Of a stretch of 64,000 nt of DNA, positions 5,374-58,600 are shown in pieces. The position numbers were made by a program, and so were the translations under genes. How positions within the stretch are numbered: position 1 is the stretch's first letter; the number at the start of each line of letters is the position of its first letter. Where the stretch lies: contig OZ024742.1 of the NCBI GenBank assembly GCA_964016885.1, positions 38,192,001 through 38,256,000 on the forward strand, in the 5' to 3' direction. The notes beneath the pieces are model-generated. The model saw only the letters and a list, made by a program, of their open reading frames with translations. It did no database searches and was not told where the DNA came from. This stretch comes from Eledone cirrhosa. Taxonomy: Eukaryota.

Positions 5374-6542
<1,169 letters not shown>

Positions 6543-29784: not shown

Positions 29785-35246
<5,462 letters not shown>

Positions 35247-45372: not shown

Positions 45373-46703
45373 AGGACCGGTGAAACTAGATGAGATGCAA
45401 TTTGGGTTTGTACCAGGAAAAGACACCACTGATGCCCTCTTCCTTGTGAGGCAGTTACAGGAAAAGTACCTAGCTAAAAGTAAGCCGCTCTACCTGGCAT
45501 TTGTCGATCTGAAGAAAGCCTTTGACAGAGTTCCCCGTGCTATAATCTGGTGGGCTCTTAGAAAACTAGGAGTAGATGAATGGCTTGTGAAGGCTGTACA
45601 AGCCATGTATAGGGGAGCAGTCAGCAAAGTTAGGATTAGCACTGACTATAGTGAGGAATTTAGCATACAGGTCAGGATCCACCAGGGCTCTGTTCTTAGC
45701 CCTCTCCTGTTCATCATAGTTTTGCAAGCAATAACGGAGGAGTTTAAGCAAACAGCCACAGGAAACAAGCATCACCAAACTCTGGGAGGGCTCTGTAGAA
45801 ACAGTAGACAGCTTCTGCTACCTAGGTGACCGAATTAGCAGCGGAGGTGGGTGTTCGGAAAGTACAATAACTAGGGTAAGAACGGGATGGAAGAAGTTCA
45901 GGCAGGTACTGCCACTGCTAGCTGCAAAAGTCTTTTCCCTCAAAATGAAAGGCAGACTGTATGATGCGTGTATACAAACAGCAATTTACATGGTAGTGAG
46001 ACCTGGGCGCTGTCTGTAGAAGACTTGCATAGATTAGAAAGAAACGAAGCCTGCATGCTCCGATGGATGTGTAATAGTAATATACGTGAACGGCAAAGCA
46101 TAAATGAATTGAGAGAGAGACTGAGCATAAGAAGAATCAAATGCTGTGTGCAGGAGAGGCGGTTGCGTTGGTATGGACATGTGATGTGTATGAAGGATGA
46201 CAGCTGCATAAAAAGGTGCAGAGCACTAGAAGTCGATGGAAACCACAGAGTGGGGAAACCCAAGAAGACCTGGGATGAGGTGATAAAAGCCGACCTTACC
46301 AAATTACACCTCTCAAAGGCGATGACACATGACCGTGACCTCTGGCGTCACGCAGTAATACAGAAGACCCGACCACCCACAGGTACAAGTCGAAGCTGAA
46401 GCATATAGACAATATGCCCCCACACCCTCCCACTGCAAAGTGGTCGTGGAGGTGCCGCGGCAAAAAAGCACCCAGCCCACACTGTAAAGTGGACGTGTAG
46501 GTACCACAGAAAAAAAGCACCCAGCACTCACTTTAAATGAGGTTGGTGTTAGGAAGGGCATCCAGCTGTAGAAATCAAACCAGAATCAGTTCCCGCATGA
46601 GCAAGACAAGGTCAGCCGACCGGCTACTGCCCACAACAGGACAACCCGTCTAACCCATGCTAGCGTGGAAGAACGGACATAAAACGGTGATGATGATGAT
46701 GAT
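45373..46703 (+). mobile_element. 5'-truncated RTE LINE, same family as 17641-20436, with internal deletion
   Basis: Near-identical RT and 3' UTR; ~341-bp deletion at ~45748 removes YADD and the Cys-rich insert; (GAT)n tail. Confidence 0.93.
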
Positions 46704-48236: not shown

Positions 48237-51200
48237 GACTGCGGAATCCTGGAGAGTGGAAGGGAGAGAAAAATCTGGACGCTCAGCGAAAATGCCAAAG
48301 TTAAAGACAAATTCACCTCGTGGACGAGAATGCGAGCACTCCTCTTTGTTTCGTCCGCGGATGGCTAACATAACCCCATCTCCCCCCGCCCCCAAACGCA
48401 ATCCAAAACTTCAGAGTTGGTACCATAAATGTAGGCACCCTAAAGGGTCGCGCTAACGAGGTTGTAGAAATGCTTGAACGTAAGGAGGTCGATGTTTGTT
48501 GTATTCAAGAGACCAGGTGGAGGGGTGGGTCTGCTAGATTCATTGAGGGTAAAAAACGATGTTATAAGCTTTTCTGGGTGGGAAACAACGATGGGCTGGG
48601 TGGAGTAGGAATCATGGTAGCAGAAAAGTGGGCAGATAAGATAATAGACGTAAATAGAGTGAACGACAGAATAATTAAAATACGACTTGTCCTCAATAGA
48701 ACTACGGTGACAGTAATATCTGTGTACGCACCCCAATCCGGACTGCCCGGCACTATAAAAGACAGATTCTATGAGACACTGATGCTAACTACCTCCCAAA
48801 TATCCAACAGTGACTATATAATTATTGCAGGCGACCTAAATGGTCACGTTGGACAACATTGTGACGGCTACGACGAAGTCCATGGAGGCTATGGGTTTGG
48901 TACTAGAAATGAGGAAGGCTCCAGAATCCTGGAATTCTGTGATGCAAATAACCTAACTATCTGTAACACTAACTTCAAAAAACGTGACAATCACCTGATC
49001 ACCTATAGATCCGGGGAACACACAAGCCAGGTAGATTATATCCTTACCAGAAGACGTGACAGAGTGTCTGTTGTAAACACTAAATCCCTCCCCCATGAAG
49101 AATGCACCTCCCAACATAGACTGATAATTAGCGACCTCATAGTCAGGACGAGACGTACTCGACAGCAGAAGAGGACTATCCTCAGGAGAAAAGTATGGAA
49201 GCTAAAGGACCCCACAGCCAGAAATAAATTTCAAAGCATATTACTTGATGCTTTCGACAGTAAGGAAGAACATTTAGAGTCGGACAATATAGAGGGACAG
49301 TGGGAATTTCTGAAAGCAAATCTGCTGATGGCGACAGACGAAGTCTGTGGCTGGAGCAGGCCTGTAGGCAGAAGGAGAGTAACATGGTGGTGGAACAGTA
49401 AGGTGGAGGGGTCAATTAAGGCCAAAAAGCAGGCTTGGAAAGTATGGCGGGATGGGGGAAGTAGAGAAGGCTATCAAGTGGCCAGGAGGGAAGCTAGGAG
49501 ACAAGTGTACTTAGCAAGAAGGGAAGCAGAGGAAAGAAAGTTCAAGCATGTTCTACAACGTGAGGACCAAAAACGTGAGGTGTTCAGGATTGCTAGGCAA
49601 TGCGTCAAGGAAAACCGTGATATTGTCGGGGAGAAGTGTGTACTTAACGATGATGGCACACTTGCCATCACCGACGCTGATAAGAAGGTAGCTTGGAAGT
49701 GTCACTATGAAAGGCTACTAAATGAGGAGAATAAATGGGAGAAAGACAGTCTCCCCCATATCGACCCAATAGAGGGACCAGCAGTGTTAGTCGAGGGGAG
49801 TATAATAAGTAAGGCAATAAAAGATATGAAGACGGGTAAGGCGGCTGGGCCTTCGGAAATAGTTGCTGAGATGCTGAAGGCATCTGGCACGGTGGGACAC
49901 ACCATGGTCACCCGGATAGTTAACCAAGTCGTACAGAATGGGGTTGTTCCGAAGGACTGGCGTAGCAGCATCATCGTTAACTGTTATAAGGGTAAAGGAG
50001 ATGCCCTAGATAGGAGTAACTATAGAGGCATTAAATTAATCGACCAGGTCATGAAGGTCACGGAAAAAGTAATAGCGCAACTAATCAGAGAGAGAATTGA
50101 CCTAGATGAAATGCAATTCGGGTTTGTGTCAGGCAAAAGTACCACAGACGCTCTTTTCATTGTACGACAACTACAGGAGAAGTACCTAGCTAAAGGTAAA
50201 CCCCTCTACTTAGCTTTTGTCGACTTGGAGAAAGCCTTCGACAGAGTCCCCCGCTTCATTATCTGGTGGGCTCTTAGAAAACTAGGCGTTGACGAATGGC
50301 TTGTGAGGGCTATACAAGCCATGTATAAAGAAACAGTCAGCAAGGTTAGAATTAACAACTACTATTTATTATTGCCCTTCAGGCTATAACAGAGGAGTTC
50401 AAGACCGGCTGCCCATGGGAACTCCTATACGCAGACGACCTGACACTCATAGCGGAATCAATGGCCGAGCTAGAGAAGAAATTCCAAACATGGAAGCACG
50501 GCCTAGAGTCAAAAGGACTTAAAATTAACCTGGCTAAGACTAAAGTTCTAGTTTGTAGGAAAGAAAACAAGGCGGCGGTCCCTTCTGGGAAATGGTCATG
50601 CTCGGTGTGTAGGAAAGGCGTAGGTAGAAACTCCATTTTATGTCCTAAATGCAAAGTATGGGTGCATAAAAGATGTAGTGGGATCACAGGTAAGCTAACT
50701 AAGAACATAGATTTTACATGTGGCCGGTGCTCTGGTGCAATAAGTAGCAGCAAGTGCCTACAAAATACTAGCTCTTTCAATTGCGCAGAGGGTTCTATAG
50801 AAATAGTGGACAGCTTCCGTTACCTGGGCAATAAAATCAGCAGTGGGGGAGGGTGCTCTGAAAGTACAGTAGCTAGAGTCAGAACTGGTTGGAAAAAGTT
50901 CAGAGAGCTTATACCACTATTAGCCGCTAAAGGGTTCTCCCTAAAAATGAAAGGCAGGTTGTACGATGCCTGCATACGAACAGCAATGTTGCATGGCAGT
51001 GAGACCTGGGCATTGTGTGCAGAGGATATACGCAGACTAGAGAGGAACGAAGCTTGCATGCTCCGCTGGATGTGTAACAGTAATATACGTGAACGGCAAA
51101 GCATAAACGAACTAAGGAAAAAATTAGAGATAAGAGGGATCAGATGTTGTTTACTCGAGAGAAGGCTACGTTGGTATGGACACGTGATGCGCATGAAAGT

Positions 51201-51755
51201 CGATAGCTGTATAACAAAGTGCAGGGCAATAAAGATAGACGGTAGCCATGGAATAGGCAGACCTAGAAAAACCTGGGACGAGCTGATAAACTCCGACCTC
51301 ACACACTTACACCTCTCCAAGACAATGTCACTGGACCGAGATCTTTGGCGCTACACAGTAATACAGAAGACCCGCCTTGCCTAAGTACAAAGCAAAACCT
51401 ACAGTCAGTAGGCACCTCTAACAAAAATACATCCCCATCCCACCACCCCCACCCCTTTCGATGTAAAGTTATGTTTGTACCACAACATCCAGTCCGAAAT
51501 AAATGAGGTCGTGTAGGTGCCACGACAAAAAAACACACAGTCCACGCTGTAATGTGGCCGTGTAGGTAACACGGTAAAAACCTCCCAGTCCACACTGTAA
51601 ACGTGGTTGGTGTTAGGAAGGGCATCCGGCCGTAGAAAATCCACCAGACAGTCCTATACGAGCAAGACAACCAATCTTGCTTCAAGTGGGAAAATTCCCG
51701 TCCAAACCTATGCAAGCGTGGAAGATGGACGTTAAACGATGATGATGATGATGAT
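48237..51755 (+). mobile_element. Near full-length RTE LINE (sister family), inserted at a (TA)n tract
   Basis: APE (RVGTINVGTL, IQETRW, SVYAPQ, GDLNGHVG, SQHR) plus RT across ORFs 48470-50389 and 50461-51384. A ~60-nt frameshifting deletion at ~50360 removes GVHQGS. 3' UTR and (GAT)n tail present. Confidence 0.95.
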
Positions 51756-51924
51756 ATTAGATAATACATTATGTATATTTATAACTCCTATTATTCAGCA
51801 TGAAAATGTGTGACAAGGTTGGCTCTTTAAATTGCAAGTACAATTTTTCCAGCTGAGTGAACCGAGCAGCATAAAATAAAGTTTCTTGTGAATGTATGTA
51901 TGCCCAACTATCATAATATTCCGT

Positions 51925-51965
<41 letters not shown>

Positions 51966-51993
51966 TAGAGAGAGAGAGGGGGGGGGGGGGGTT

Positions 51994-52260
51994 ATATAAA
52001 AACATATATAATACGTTTACATACAATAAACATTATAGGTAGCCAGCTGCCAAAGAAAAGTATTTTTTGTAACAATACGAAAAGAAAAAAAAAAATTATT
52101 TTTTTCTGTGAATAGGTCACTATGTTTTGAGAATGTCAGTCAGTGCTGTTTCAAGATTTATTAATTTTTCATCAGTGACACTCACTCAAAACATACTGGC
52201 ATGAAATAGACAATCTATATCAAATTTTGTGTGATGATCACTTGCTGGAGATGTTCATTT
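51994..52260 (-). mobile_element. Copy A (inverted, one TIR) of the hammerhead-bearing TIR element
   Basis: Reverse complement of 52426-52700. Minus strand carries tgtca CTGATGA aaaatt aata aatctt GAA ACAGCACTG AC tgaca. Confidence 0.8.
52121..52200 (-). ncRNA. Type I hammerhead ribozyme motif, copy A (cleavage triplet GAC instead of GUC)
   Basis: Long bulged stem I (tatgttttgag-tg-agtgtca / tgacatt-ctcaaaacata), intact CUGAUGA and GAAA, stem II with one mismatch. Confidence 0.8.
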
Positions 52261-52313
52261 GCATATAGTGCGAGCTTGGCTGATTATATTTAATTGACAG
52301 TAGCACTAAGATA

Positions 52314-52721
52314 GTGTTTAATCATAATAGAAGTGTATATGAAAACATATGTAATACGTTTAAATATAATAAATATATGGGTAGCCTCGCTGCTGAAGAA
52401 AAATATTTTCTCAGAACGAAATGAAAAATGAGCATCTCCAATAAATGATCATCACACAAAATTCTATATAGACTATAGTCTATTTCATACCAGTACATTT
52501 TGAGTGAGTGTCACTAATGAAAGATTAACAAATCTTGAAACAGTACTGTGATATTCTCAAAACATACTGGCAACTCTGATGTATTCACCGCGAAAAAATG
52601 AATTTTTGTTTTTTTTTATGGAAAATTTTTTTCTTTGGCAACAAGGCTACACCTATGTTTATTGTATGTAAAGGTAATATATATATTTTTTTTCATATAC
52701 ACCTCTAATATGCTTAAACAC
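52314..52721 (+). mobile_element. Copy B: ~410-bp element with ~100-bp TIRs enclosing a hammerhead motif
   Basis: 52314-52410 and 52621-52721 are imperfect inverted repeats (gtgtttaa-cata-taga-gtgtatatgaaaa...gtagcct-g-tgc--aagaaaaa-attttc). Confidence 0.8.
52490..52571 (+). ncRNA. Type I hammerhead ribozyme motif, copy B (G5 to A, 2-nt loss at the cleavage site)
   Basis: agtgtca CTAATGA aagatt aaca aatctt GAA ACAGTACTGT gatattctcaaaacatactggc; perfect stem II and palindromic stem III. Confidence 0.8.
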
Positions 52722-55474
52722 CAATTTTGTATATATATAAACGTGTGTGTGAAATACAGACAATGCATTTTTTATATCAGTCATGTTGCTACAATACAAA
52801 GTTCTCTTTTCAGGCACAAGGTTCAAGGTTTTAACCTTACATTTATTCCTGTAAACTGTTGTTTCTCTAAAGTTACTCTTACATTTAAACCTGTATGTCA
52901 TTTATACATATATGCCAAACATTTATATAATTATATCCTAGATATTAATAATTGAAATATCATTCTTATCTTTAATCACTTCTGTGTGTCAATAATCAAT
53001 ATAAACTATGGGGTTTCTCTTATTCAAATTATCAATTTATTAAAACAGAAATCTCCCAGGTTGTATGGTTGTTCATCTATCTATCATATATGAATAGGAC
53101 CCGTCCCACCCTTGCAAGCAGGGAAAAGCAGACGTAAAATGACGATGATTAACCCTGGTATATATGATATACCAATCTTGGACTCCAAAAATTAAATACA
53201 TTCAACACTATAACTGCCATTATTGAGAGCATGGGTCCACGAGTTTATTATATATTATGATTACTATAAAATCTATAATAAATATATTATTTATATTAAA
53301 TGTATTAGATTTTGAAGGATTTCAGCAGGCCAAATCAGTAAGGGATTGGCTTACTGAGCAAGAGAAGAGGGGAACATGAAGGTGATTATTCCACTAACAA
53401 AACTGCAATGTTGTTATGGCTAAGAGAAAAAATTAATTTGTGACCACAATAATCATGTTACCTGGCTGACAGCCTGTCACCAAAATAGTAATTAATCTAT
53501 TATCTGTCCAATGTTGTTGCACCAAAACCTCATATCCATCTGATTCTCATTAACATCCAGTAATGATTTAGCAGAAAATATCTAAAAATAAATTTAATTC
53601 AAATGTTTGTAGTATCTTTACTAGTGGACAGATTGTGAAAATTTGCAGTATTGGAGTAAAGACTTTAAAATATTTAAGATGATGTAGTCATAGTGCTATT
53701 TTGTATATTTCAAGAATATCTTGTTAATGTTGTTTCATGTGGTACAGGATGTTAAGAGTTAAGAAGATAATCATCAAAGAAGAGTAAGAATCTATGGTTG
53801 CTACAACATTAAGAATAACTGAGAAGAGAGGTGAAAAGCTGAGCTGACATGAGGTGAGCTGGTTAGTCACTTCACTAATCAGATTATCTAAGAGCGATAA
53901 AAGGGAGGAAACAAAGCTAGTTTAGTTAACAAAGAAGCTGTTACTGACAATGGCTATGTCAACAATACCATCTGTTGTTACAGTGATGTAATTAAATGCG
54001 ACATAAAACAATTAGAGTGGCGACTTAAAAGTTCAAACAATGACACAGCTCAATAAAATAAGTACCAGTAATGTTTTGGAATTAACCCTTTTTATACAAC
54101 CCCATCTGAAACTACTTAGATTTAGAATACAACACCAGTCATTTTAAAATGTTTATATTTATATTAAATCCTTTCATCATGATTTATTTTAAGAAATGTT
54201 TACTAAATAATGTTCTAAATATCAGTTTATTTTATTAAATTCCTCCAAATATTAGAATATTTTCAAAATCGATAATGTAAATATGAAAGCAGTCTGATAG
54301 TGTTGCCTGAATGCCCAGTCGGTTTTAAGCCCGTCTGCTTCTGGCACAACCTAAAATTACAACAGTTTATGTCACCCAAATGAAAGTCTACCTGAAATCA
54401 CTAGATTTTCATTTTTCCACAGCATATAAACTTAACTCCTTTGATACCAACCTACCTGAAACTGACCCTGTTTTTATGATACAAAACTGCATGTTGTAAA
54501 GCGTTTAGCATCATCATCATTATTACATCAATTTTTCTAGGTTGGCAGGGGTTGGACGGAACTTTTTGAGAATGTTTTACAGCCAGATGTCCTTCCTATT
54601 TATAATAAAACCTTCCATCATAATTTTATGTGAGAAACTTTTGTAAAGTTATATTCCAAACATAAGCTTAATAATAAGAAAGTTAAGCAGTGTTACTAAA
54701 TTTCTTCAACATCTTGAACCAGAATGAATTTTACTGAAGATATCCAAATAGCATGTAGTGATATTAAACTAGACATCAGTTTAATCATAACACTTCCAAC
54801 ATAGGAACCAACTCTCTGATGGGCTTTCACACTGTTTCATTAGAAATGCAGTCATGAAAAGGTTAATTCAGTGTATTTCATTAGAAATATGGTAACAAAA
54901 GGGTTAACCAATCTTGACAACTGGTTTCCACAGGCTATTACTTCACCAGCATATGGTCATGAGTTTCATTCTTGGACCAAGTGGTGTGTTGTGTTCTTGA
55001 ACAAGATACTTCATTTCATGTTGTTTTTAATGATGAGAACGCCCTGCCCCCCTCATCTATCGTTACAACACTCAAGAAACATCCCATGAAATGAAACCAC
55101 ATAGGAGACCAACAAAAATTGTATACATGAGAGCTGTAACAACAATACAATACATTAAAACACCTCAAGAAACCTTATAGGAAACCTGCTTAGGTGTGGG
55201 CTGTAAAAAATTCAAAAACATTTAAATTTCATTTCATTACTTTCTCATCAATTTACTCACCACTAGCTGAGTGAATTTGTATCATTTACTAACATGGAGA
55301 TAATAAATAGCATTTTATAATTTTTATGAAGATATTCCACATCTTCAGTAATTTATATCTTTAACTTATCTTTAGAAAAAAAATGCTTCTGAATTTAAAT
55401 ATAGATTATGATTCTGCAATATATAGATATATATATATATTGCAGAATCTATATATATATATATATATATATAT

Positions 55475-55670
55475 ATAGGAAAAAGTATGACCCCGACGGC
55501 AGAGCTCAAGCCGTTTCGACGGCTATTTCTGAGTCCAGAAATAGTCGTCGAAACAGCTTGAGCTCTGCCGTTGGGGTCATACTTTTTCCTATTTCCCACT
55601 CTACTACCCTAAGTATTGAGTACTCTGGTGCGTTATGGTCCATCTGGTTCCTTACCACAATTCCTTTGTT
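55475..55670. repeat. Element in (TA)n with a 118-bp near-perfect hairpin (55475-55592) and a unique tail
   Basis: 57-bp arms, loop agtc (55532-55535), one mismatch and two G-U pairs. Confidence 0.85.
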
Positions 55671-58600
55671 ATATATATATATATACATATATATATAAAT
55701 AAACAAATAAATAAGTAAATGAATTTATTTCACAAATTCAATTTTTTTTATTTCCTCAACTCTCCACATGGCTGCCTGCCACCTGTAACTTTTTATTATA
55801 CATTTTTAAAAACAAGTCTAGATTTCTGTTTTCAACATCAAAGATTTAGAATTGTAAAAAAAAAAAATGTTTTGGAAAACCATTTTTTAACCCTTTAGTA
55901 TTTACATTATTCTATATTTACTATTGTATTTTCATGGTAAACACTTTATCTTACATAATTATCTCGCATAATATCGAATCTGAGATTTTGATGTTATTAA
56001 CTTCGAGAACACAACCTTAATGTAGGTATGAGTGGCCAGTTTCAGCCAGTTTGAACAGAAAGAGGTGAGACAGTTCTGGCTGGATATGGCCGGTTTAAAT
56101 GCTAAAGGGTTAAATATTTTTTCTTGGGGTTCAATCAATCATCAACCATTTTTGGTTGCATTTTATTAAATCAAGGTTTTATTGACAAAAAATACTCAAG
56201 CTAAAATTAGTCTTCTTTGATGTTGAACGCAGAAATTTGAAGAACTTTTAAACACATACAAAAAATGTTACAGAGACTTGATTAGTAATTCAATTTGTGT
56301 GAAAAAAAAAATATAATCTATATTTAAAGAATTTATATAATTTAGAAGCAAACATTTTGAATAATGGAGCAACCTGTTCATGATGTAAATTGCAAGTAAC
56401 TGAACATTCCAGACACACGTACCCATAATATATTCCTCGAGGAGACTCAGTGTGACAATGTGTGAAAAAATTGGCTCTTTCAATTACAGGTACAGTTTAT
56501 TATTGCCAGTTGAGTGGACTAGATAGAACAACATCAAATAAAATGTCTTGCTCAAAGACACATGTCATCAGAAATTGAACTCACAACTTTACAATCATGA
56601 GCACCCTAACCACTAATCCATGTACCTTCAAATGAGAGCAGCACTCATATATACAGGTATGAACCTCCACACAGAAGAAAATCCAATCATATACAAGAAA
56701 AGAAAGATACATGAATGTTTACATGTTGGTTAACAAATGAAATTTAATTGAAAAAGAAAAGTATCACTCCAGCAGTACACGATGATGATAGTGGTGGAGA
56801 TGGTAGTGAAGAGAGGTTTATCAAATCAATAAGTTAATAATAATAATGGTTTTTGATTTAGACACAAGGCCAACAATTTGAGGCGAGGGGAAAGTTTATT
56901 AAATCAACCCCAGTGCATTACTGGTACTTCATTTTATCAACTCTGTAAGGACGAAAGGCAAAGCTAACCTTGGTGGTATTTGAACTCAGAATGTAAACGG
57001 CCGTAACTTTATGCTGCAAAGCATGTTGTCCGATGCTCTACCATACGATACTGCCAATTCACTTTGATAATAATAATGTTTCTACTTTTGGCACAAGGCC
57101 AGCAATTATCCCAGTGCATTACTGGTGCTTTATTTTATCAATTCTGTAAGGATGAAAGGCTAAGCTAACCTCAGTGGGATTTGAACACAGAACGCAAAGG
57201 GCAGTAACACTATGCTGCAAAGCATGTTGTCCAATGCTCTACCATTATACTGTGTTTCTCCTGTGGGAGTGAACACCACAAGCCAACAAAAAGACTAGGA
57301 ACTATAATGACCAACAAGAAGATTAAAAAATCAACAGCACAAAAACACATTGACACTGCTGATGTTCTTGGTTCCTGGATGGTCAATTTCCCCCAAATCA
57401 GAAGGATGGAGCCCCATCAAGTGTAATTGATGATGCAGCAATGGATATCACTGCCTGTTCACTGTGGCAAGGCTTTTGCCATCTTTTCGACAGGGTGTAG
57501 CTGAGATACACCATCCAGCTAAAAGTGTAGAATTTGTATATATCATCAGTTAACATATGCTTTCCTTGCTAGCAAGAGTTGGAAGATTAATCACAGACCA
57601 GGTCAGTACTCAAGTGGAGCTCTTGACCTCTCAGACAGGTAAGGAGTCAGCATCTCACATACATTCCTGTCACTTACCAAATGCATTTTATTGTGGCACC
57701 AGCACTAGGGAGGTTGTCATGACTTTGACATAGCTAGAGTCCTCATGGCTTTTTATAGTGTATACGGGGTGCATTTATCATGTAAATCGCCAATAGCAGA
57801 GAGGTTGTTGGTCATAGACTTGACTGAAGGACCCTTATGCTGTTCATGTACACTAACATTACTCATGTAGCAAAGCATGCAAGCTTCATTTTGTTTTAGT
57901 TGCCTCAGATCTTCTGCACTCAGGGCTCATATCTCACTGCCATATAATTTTATTCAGTTTCTCTTTATATTTCATAAAAGTTGAGTGTGTAATGTGGTTA
58001 AATAACTCAATTCTCAAGTTTCATTCTCACAACAGAAACTTGCTTTTTGTGTTAAAGGCAATCAAGATTTATGTAGGGTGTTCAGACATGCTTTGTATAG
58101 ATATCACCGTTTCAGGATTGTATTACATATTCGATAGTGAAAAGATTGAGAACTGTGTTGGACCTCCATAGGATCCGATAATGTTCCAGTTGTTTGAACA
58201 ATGGAACAACCTGCTCATGGATTTAGATTTTTTTCTGCTAATTCATTACAGGATGTTAAGAATTAAGCTGATGTATAAATGATAGAAAGTCAGGTTAGGA
58301 TTGTTTAACAAGCGATTAACAAAAAACAAAAATGCAAGATTTGTTCTGTTCAATACGACAAAAACTCCCGTATTTAACATAAATAACAAAAAAATACAGA
58401 TTTGCTCTAGGAAAACGTTCGCTACATTTCGGATTTTGCAAGATTGGATGTTTGGACTAGGTACGAAATTGAAGCGTGGAGTAGATAGAAAAATGTGTAC
58501 GTTACGATTACATGAGATACACCGTAGTAGGGACAGCAAATGAATTGGCGAAAGTGAGTAAACTTGAAGGGGAGTTTTTATCTTATATATATATATATGT

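What the first reader, a model, noticed from the sequence alone, without database searches (positions are those of the whole stretch)
51994..52721. TIR-bounded, MITE-like element carrying a type I hammerhead ribozyme, present as a head-to-head inverted pair
Seen: copy B (52314-52721) has ~100-bp terminal inverted repeats around a hammerhead fold, and copy A (51994-52260) is the same element reversed and missing one TIR. The two copies carry different lesions (A: U16.1 to A and a stem II mismatch; B: G5 to A and a 2-nt loss). Their consensus is a complete ribozyme: gccagtatgttttgag-tg-agtgtca CTGATGA aagatt aaca aatctt GAA ACAGTACTGT C tgacatt ctcaaaacatactggc, with a ~23-bp bulged stem I, 6-bp stem II, palindromic stem III and GUC site. 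Established: animal type I hammerheads occur in Penelope-like element pseudo-LTRs and in tandem non-LTR retrozymes, usually as direct repeats. Inference: a hammerhead inside long TIRs is an unusual architecture, either a DNA-transposon MITE that captured a ribozyme or a self-cleaving retro-mobilised foldback family.
Basis: partly seen in the sequence, partly recalled or inferred. Interest (0 to 1): 0.85.

Follow-up and report, generated by a model that had tools for sequence, protein, structure and literature searches.

The report
Two-armed Penelope-type hammerhead retrozyme fossil
This is a decayed copy of a 409-base non-coding repeat that carries a self-cutting RNA motif and lies here as two back-to-back arms, likely pasted in by a Penelope-type jumping gene rather than being a DNA transposon; it belongs to a known class, and its one notable extra is a promoter-like word shared with the host's U6-type genes, whose function is untested.

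Summary
The hammerhead, both lesioned copies and the ~100-bp inverted similarity are real. The TIR/MITE reading is not supported. The repeat unit is a ~409-bp monomer. The 'spacer' between A and B is its tail-to-head junction, and the 'TIRs' are the same 3' tail on two opposed arms. Of 114 loci, 57 show the direct junction, 28 a divergent inverted arm at variable breakpoints and 2 a convergent one. Ends favour microsatellites, and 13 of 17 two-armed loci have one short and one long end. This is Penelope-like insertion anatomy, so the element is a non-LTR retrozyme. The consensus core is intact and stem I covaries between subfamilies, but copies are old (about 87% identical to consensus) and both window ribozymes are broken. 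Two extras: the monomer carries the 12-mer found at -77 to -79 of host U6, U6atac and MRP genes, plus a TATA box; and it shares a 12-mer with the 3' end of one host Penelope-like lineage. Against a Pol III promoter: spacing is 3-5 nt short and T5 runs lie inside the unit. No RNA data. The scan already noted two-armed retrozymes and this promoter motif in younger families of this genome.

The parts
51994..52429 (-). Left arm: partial direct tandem of the monomer (positions 255-409, junction, 1-30, 58-347); short form lacking the 41-bp internal repeat
   Evidence: L001 1181-1616 minus
52426..52727 (+). Right arm: 5'-truncated inverted copy (monomer 66-380, then a remnant of the long end after a ~17-nt loss)
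   Evidence: (L001 1613-1908); the remnant is read by eye from the sequence
52426..52429 (.). Inversion junction with a 4-nt overlap between the arms
   Evidence: overlap -4; contigs cross it
52119..52201 (-). Type I hammerhead of arm A, broken (U16.1 to A at 52140, stem II mismatch, distal stem I loss)
52489..52571 (+). Type I hammerhead of arm B, broken (G5 to A at 52516, 2-nt loss at the cleavage site)
52254..52265 (-). Octamer-containing box, 11 of 12 matching the U6/MRP upstream box (family consensus 12 of 12)
52465..52470 (+). TATATA box, 44 nt after the octamer box in the consensus (arm B itself is truncated inside the box)
52283..52313 (-).
52698..52709 (+). One-mismatch copy of the 12-mer shared with the 3' terminus of a host Penelope-like lineage; marks the family's short end (~365)
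51928..51993 (.). (TA)n target, then (GA)n and a G-run; the latter two probably expanded from the short end of arm A (inference)

Best explanation
The stretch is one old insertion of a ~409-bp hammerhead-bearing repeat, lying as a minus-strand partial tandem and an opposed 5'-truncated copy, and it was likely written into a TA microsatellite by a Penelope-like reverse transcriptase/endonuclease acting in trans on the repeat's RNA. Shown: the monomer and its tail-to-head junction, the two-armed layout with variable inner breakpoints, short and long outer ends, microsatellite flanks, an intact consensus core, subfamily covariation in stem I, and broken cores in both window copies. Inferred: (1) Tandem master copies were transcribed, most likely from the U6-type box plus TATA inside each unit, with a predicted start near monomer 135-140 at the base of stem I. 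(2) Read-through RNA was cut after GUC, probably most efficiently as a dimer through the palindromic stem III, giving unit-length or circular RNA. (3) The PLE enzyme nicked both strands of (TA)n and primed cDNA at two sites about 44 nt apart (~365 and ~409). (4) The two cDNAs were joined at a short overlap, which creates the apparent TIRs. (5) The copies then decayed neutrally.
For: Architecture: 57 of 114 loci have the direct 409-to-1 junction; 28 have divergent and 2 convergent inverted arms; the 3' flank is microsatellite-like in 44 of 114 against 240 of 2280 random flank windows. 3' ends pile up at 340-369 and 400-409. 13 of 17 two-armed loci with both ends past position 325 have one long and one short end, against 8.4 expected, p=0.02 (threshold chosen after seeing the ends). 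These features are listed for PLEs in PMC8557442 (passages). Autonomous RT plus C-terminal GIY-YIG elements are abundant: 150 of 150 scored candidates matched out of 10,596 first-look candidates (domains confirmed for L168 and L156). One such lineage ends in the same 12-mer that marks the family's short end (5 of 8 complex 12-mer hits in 40 PLE loci, all 5 at PLE repeat ends; 3 of 30 loci are ends of that PLE). Ribozyme: 85.0% of cells pair against 83.7% shuffled; 77 double changes against 50.6; one stem I pair is UA in 41 and GC in 10 sequences. The consensus hammerhead fold lies within 0.7 kcal/mol of the minimum, and the stem III 10-mer self-pairs at -16.9 kcal/mol as a dimer and 0 alone. 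Size (409 bp) and low GC fit metazoan non-LTR retrozymes (PMC7229834 passages). Promoter.
Against: No partner PLE with extended similarity was found: blastn of the monomer against 40 GIY-YIG loci gave only TA-repeat hits in the part of the output shown, and the shared word is only 12 nt, found after the fact, in a PLE lineage younger than this family. No array of two complete monomers was seen in the 114 loci, whereas retrozymes are defined by tandem units. 5' ends do not cluster at the cleavage site, so the insertions give no trace of cutting. Covariation is confined to distal stem I, reflects a few related subfamilies, and 71 of 500 shuffles reach the observed number of covarying pairs. The monomer folds well on both strands (z -5.7 sense, -7.4 antisense, 40 shuffles), so its stability does not single out the ribozyme strand. 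Against Pol III: box-to-TATA spacing is 44 against 47-49 in host genes, T5 runs lie at monomer 256 and 281, and the box is no better conserved than its flanks among copies. A and B are only slightly more alike than copies from other loci (84% against 80%; 2 shared derived changes against 2.1 expected), so a single event at this locus is not proven.
Confidence: 0.8

Rival explanations
1. A DNA-transposon MITE with ~100-bp TIRs that captured a hammerhead.
For: The arms 52314-52410 and 52621-52721 are 79% complementary. L002 and L004 align with B end to end.
Against: The 'TIR' is the monomer's 3' tail. Most loci have no inverted arm, breakpoints are scattered, and the direct tail-to-head junction is the commonest form. 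No target-site duplication was found.
Confidence: 0.03
2. The unit is the solo pseudo-LTR or an internal-deletion remnant of an autonomous PLE that has not been found, with no life of its own as a small RNA.
For: PLE pLTRs carry type I hammerheads (PMC4209133 passages), and Xenopus retrozymes are homologous to pLTRs (bioRxiv 10.64898/2026.07.22.740005, parts 1-3 of 5 read). A shared terminal 12-mer exists.
Against: After the junction the sequence goes straight to the ribozyme and tail in every extended copy inspected. Only 1 of 93 loci (L024) had a strong PLE ORF match; it abuts the 3' end across a TA run, and a second (L190) was weak. Origin from a pLTR is compatible with the main reading.
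Confidence: 0.1
3. The two arms are independent insertions or a later DNA-level inverted duplication, or the family spread by rolling-circle DNA (Helentron-like) replication.
For: A and B share no excess of derived changes. The monomer is rich in small palindromes. A few loci show recent homogenisation of inverted arms (L109 100%, L016 93%).
Against: The 28-to-2 bias for divergent orientation with arms almost touching, the long/short end asymmetry, and higher within-locus than between-locus identity in 19 of 25 inverted and 33 of 42 direct pairs (pairs not independent). No Helitron-type CTRR end is seen at the long end (read from the consensus; criterion recalled).
Confidence: 0.07

Closest known systems
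Metazoan non-LTR retrozymes (Cervera and de la Pena 2020, PMC7229834, passages read; Li, Clavereau and Pollet 2026, bioRxiv 10.64898/2026.07.22.740005, parts 1-3 of 5 read)
   Same: Non-coding, low-GC unit of 150-450 bp with a canonical type I hammerhead, head-to-tail junctions, dispersed copies, and PLEs in the same genome.
   Different: Old and mostly broken; only partial tandems seen; frequent inverted second arm; carries a U6-type upstream box. The passages read do not describe these last two features for retrozymes. Circular RNA was not tested.
Penelope-like elements, pLTR/tandem-inverted insertions (Craig et al. 2021, PMC8557442; Cervera and de la Pena 2014, PMC4209133; passages read)
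   Same: Partial tandem, inverted 5'-truncated copy, a tail at one end only, (TA)n preference, hammerhead with palindromic helix III, opposite-strand hammerhead pairs 100-700 bp apart.
   Different: No ORF. The tail offset is about 44 nt against the 30-40 bp described. Helix I is long (~23 bp) rather than minimal.
Newt satellite 2 and Schistosoma Sm-alpha (seen only as cited in PMC2220036 and PMC6765202 passages; primary papers not read)
   Same: Hammerhead repeats with a promoter inside the unit.
   Different: Newt: snRNA-type promoter read by Pol II. Schistosome: SINE-like Pol III promoter. Here the box matches the host's U6/U6atac/MRP upstream element and not its U1/U2/RNase P upstream pattern.
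MITEs of class II transposons (criteria recalled)
   Same: Short, non-coding, high copy number, can look like a foldback.
   Different: No fixed TIRs and no TSD; direct junctions and 5' truncation instead.

Membership tests
Non-LTR retrozyme | Type I hammerhead core (CUGANGA, GAAA, UH) with three stems in the unit | tested here: met
   Consensus intact; pairing and covariation. Intact in 15 of 36 B-picked and 1 of 21 junction-picked copies; neither window copy is intact.
Non-LTR retrozyme | Non-coding unit of about 150-450 bp, low GC, no LTR/PBS/PPT | tested here: met
   409-bp monomer; no ORF of 90 aa or more wholly within it. PBS and PPT were not searched for explicitly.
Non-LTR retrozyme | Head-to-tail tandem organisation | tested here: met
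   57 of 114 loci have the direct junction; only partial tandems, and no full dimer was seen in this sample.
Non-LTR retrozyme | Self-cleavage of the RNA | not testable with these tools
   Folding energies only.
Non-LTR retrozyme | Linear and circular RNA in vivo | not testable with these tools
   No RNA holder listed.
PLE-mobilised non-autonomous element | Partial tandem, inverted 5'-truncated copy, one-sided tail, microsatellite target | tested here: met
PLE-mobilised non-autonomous element | 3'-end similarity to an autonomous PLE | tested here: inconclusive
   Only a 12-mer followed by TTAA is shared with one lineage; a 7-mer of it also lies 38-46 nt before the TA run in a second lineage. 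40 of 150 scored GIY-YIG loci were examined.
MITE | Fixed terminal inverted repeats in most copies | tested here: not met
   28 of 114 loci inverted, breakpoints scattered.
MITE | Target-site duplication | tested here: not met
   Tested only at the window locus, where only TA repeat is shared; TA targets can hide a TA duplication.
Type 3 (U6-like) Pol III promoter | Host proximal box and TATA at host spacing | tested here: inconclusive
   Box 12 of 12 identical to MRP and one U6 gene; 1 of 5000 shuffles scores as high; spacing 44 against 47-49.
Type 3 (U6-like) Pol III promoter | Mapped start site and Pol III dependence | not testable with these tools
   No RNA data.

The most novel reading that the evidence does not exclude
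These retrozymes are self-promoting RNA replicons. Each circularly permuted unit carries the host's U6-type upstream Pol III promoter, which ordinary SINE-like RNAs lose on retrotransposition because it lies outside the transcript, and the hammerhead-cut tandem or circular RNA is what lets them keep it. They also carry a short end signal copied from a specific Penelope-like partner that sets where its enzyme primes cDNA.
Probability: 0.4. Interest if true: 0.6.

Novelty: new member of a known kind. Interest (0 to 1): 0.3.

Why it matters
As a class it is ordinary: one more animal retrozyme, here as a dead copy, and the proposed ribozyme-MITE does not exist. The family still bears on two open points in the retrozyme literature read here: who mobilises these elements and how they are transcribed. 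The insertion anatomy and a shared terminal word point to Penelope-like enzymes and name a candidate lineage. The U6/MRP-type box at fixed spacing in several otherwise unalike families gives a precise, testable start-site prediction. Younger families in the same genome are better material for both tests than this locus.

Tried and rejected
Rfam scan of 49000-56000: no hammerhead family among 28 matches at E up to 10. Expression: no RNA holder listed; this says nothing on expression. Metagenome scan for the 30-nt core: 0 matches. Search of earlier findings by sequence and near this place: nothing. Idea that reverse transcription stops at the ribozyme cut: rejected, since in 21 tail-picked loci the first plus-arm starts are scattered from 1 to 365 with none at 190-191 (one main piece, L212, starts at 192). 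Idea of template jumps between different RNAs at the cut: rejected, since markers on both sides are tightly linked (139 with 291 r=0.74; 139 with 331 r=0.76; 99 copies), so the variable spot at 137-140 reflects at least three subfamilies. RTE LINE as partner: no similarity between A or B and the neighbouring RTE in a window-wide blastn. U1/U2-type (Pol II) promoter: the box has 0 matches in 20 U1/U2 loci and is absent before RNase P. The second hammerhead family (317-bp period) shares only the GAAA/stem III segment and shows no octamer box in the 150 nt before its core. No empty-site allele was seen among the joints shown (5 not shown). Rows dropped: 10-24 duplicate loci (same genomic place) before counts; TA-only hits within monomer 300-372; 11 of 93 core regions (truncated, duplicated or with large gaps) left out of alignment A1 (82 used); 11 of 28 inverted loci left out of the end test because one arm ended before 325; U6 and U6atac hits with repeat-like upstream DNA (7 of 12 and 4 of 5) were treated as pseudogenes and left out of the promoter set, with L064 dropped as a tandem sibling of L063. 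Literature: searches returned no title or abstract on cephalopod retrozymes or on U6-type promoters in retrozymes; one search timed out. Supplements were not read, and those of the bioRxiv preprint are closed; they could list such families.

Full report
Observation. The two hammerhead-like copies, their lesions and the ~100-bp inverted similarity are in the sequence as described. The folds are far better than shuffles (z -4.25 for B, -2.87 for A), although Rfam finds no hammerhead model there. DNA-run contigs cross the inversion junction without differences, so it is not an assembly artefact. The same data show roughly 300-fold depth over the core at 92% likeness, and the first search had 1,056 candidates. 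The family therefore has hundreds to a few thousand copies; this is a rough estimate.

What the unit is. Aligning 33 core-bearing copies gave a consensus that continues on both sides of B and repeats itself with a period of 409 bp. In monomer coordinates the window holds a minus-strand run 255-409, junction, 1-30, 58-347 (52429 to 51994) and a plus-strand run 66-380 (52426-52721). The 'left TIR' of B is thus the tail of the upstream partial unit of the minus arm, and the 'gap' is the tail-to-head junction. A search with that junction found it in all 40 scored candidates. Across 114 de-duplicated loci from five searches, 57 have the direct junction, 28 a divergent inverted arm and 2 a convergent one. 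The junction-picked set inflates the first count (24 of 25); without it the count is 33 of 89. Inner breakpoints are scattered. 3' flanks are microsatellite-like in 44 of 114 loci against 240 of 2280 random windows. Outer ends cluster at about 341-369 and 400-409. Partial tandems, an inverted 5'-truncated copy, a tail at one end and (TA)n preference are the features listed for Penelope-like elements in PMC8557442 (passages). Opposite-strand hammerhead pairs were noted in PMC4209133 (passages). The MITE reading fails on fixed TIRs and on a TSD.

The ribozyme. The consensus has the full type I core with a ~23-bp stem I, 6-bp stem II and a palindromic stem III. On 82 aligned copies 85.0% of cells pair (shuffles 83.7), with 77 double changes against 50.6. 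The signal sits in distal stem I, and the count of covarying pairs is not beyond shuffles (71 of 500). It reflects at least three subfamilies whose markers stay linked across the cleavage site. The hammerhead fold is 0.7 kcal/mol above the minimum for the consensus, and stem III pairs strongly only as a dimer, as described for many metazoan type I motifs (PMC4209133). Genomic copies are decaying: mean identity to consensus is 85-88%, and the core is intact in 15 of 36 B-picked and 1 of 21 junction-picked copies. Both window copies are broken. Cleavage itself is inferred, not shown.

Promoter-like module. The monomer has TATGCAAATGA(C/G) twice and TATATA 44 nt after the second, just before stem I. 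I compared host small-RNA genes. Three U6 promoters, U6atac and RNase MRP all have TATG[CG][AT]AAT[TG]AG at -77 to -79 and TATA at -30. U1, U2 and RNase P have a different upstream pattern. The monomer's box is identical over 12 nt to those of MRP and one U6 gene, and 1 of 5000 shuffles scores as high. Genome-wide, box plus TATA occurs 22,850 times against 343 for the control, mostly at spacing 43-44 among the 100 matches listed. The two main families inspected have hammerheads 89-100 nt after the box (93 in this family) and share little else with this monomer. The first box is followed by the long internal repeat in 31 and by the short form in 18 of 49 classified copies, so the box persists without one of its possible hairpin partners. 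Against a Pol III promoter: the spacing is 3-5 nt shorter than in host genes; T5 runs at 256 and 281 would stop most Pol III before the end of the unit; part of the box can also pair in an RNA hairpin; and a second hammerhead family lacks the box. I put a functional promoter role in master copies at about 0.6 and Pol III specifically at about 0.45. Internal promoters are on record for newt satellite 2 (snRNA type, Pol II) and schistosome repeats (Pol III), seen here only as cited in PMC2220036 and PMC6765202.

Partner. GIY-YIG-bearing elements are abundant, with RT and C-terminal GIY-YIG confirmed for two. No extended similarity to the monomer appeared among 40 such loci (output partly cut). 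One lineage (L146/L168, L151, L152, L162, L174; L281, L288, L291) ends in TACACCTCTATT followed by TTAA-like bases and then (TA)n. The same 12-mer sits at monomer 357-368, the family's short end. A second lineage has its central 7-mer 38-46 nt before the TA run. This is a short, after-the-fact match to a younger lineage: a lead, not an identification. The same word also occurs twice before TA runs in 487 kb of other loci; those two were not inspected. The RTE LINE just upstream (48374-51757) is unrelated.

Mechanism and verdict. Most likely a tandem master was transcribed from the internal box, cut by the hammerhead into unit or circular RNA, and copied by a PLE enzyme from both sides of a staggered break in (TA)n. 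The two cDNAs met at a 4-nt overlap. The DNA anatomy is shown; transcription, cleavage, circles and the enzyme are inferred. It files as a new, old member of the metazoan non-LTR retrozymes (PMC7229834, passages; bioRxiv 10.64898/2026.07.22.740005, parts 1-3 of 5). PMC10886601 was checked by passages and was not relevant. My promoter comparison came before I looked at earlier scan notes. Those notes show the two-armed layout and the promoter motif were already flagged many times in younger families of this genome, with split verdicts on the promoter. They are not independent support. Interest 0.3.

Noticed in passing
window 48374-51757 (+): Nearly full RTE-type LINE (APE, RT, PHD-like finger; one frameshift) with 48-bp repeats in its 3' UTR, ending in (GAT)n; a more decayed relative at 45374-46540.
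   Followed up: partly
L125:1501-1817 and other loci: A second, younger hammerhead family with a 317-bp period, stem II variants ACAC/TCAC/TTAC, many divergent inverted pairs, and no octamer box.
   Followed up: partly
L238-L267: Very abundant young retrozyme families (466-494-bp units, and another) with the U6-type box and TATA at 43-44 nt spacing; in L251 and L265 most T runs lie in the last ~90 nt before the next box.
   Followed up: partly
L207 upstream of 1501; L081-L100: The RNase P RNA gene has the U1/U2-type upstream pattern (TCAGT word) rather than the U6/MRP box, hinting at Pol II transcription; a distal TTACCTCCC-like word near -250 recurs in U1, U2, U6 and RNase P promoters.
   Followed up: no
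window 55482-55585: Near-perfect 35-bp hairpin that recurs next to U6 pseudogenes and TA runs (L065, L068, L069, L240), probably the end of another abundant element.
   Followed up: no
window 29793-35245: 5.4-kb AT-rich microsatellite block.
   Followed up: no
window 5677-6067: 84-bp tandem repeats with the period of C2H2 zinc-finger arrays (label from recall).
   Followed up: no
L161, L165, L174: Type I hammerheads with a long stem III near RT/GIY-YIG ORFs.
   Followed up: no
L109 and L016: Inverted arms 100% and 93% identical in otherwise diverged copies, suggesting recent duplication or gene conversion between arms.
   Followed up: no
L024:692-1456: A young 5'-truncated PLE (96.5% aa identity to L168) abuts the long end of a family copy across a short TA run.
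   Followed up: partly
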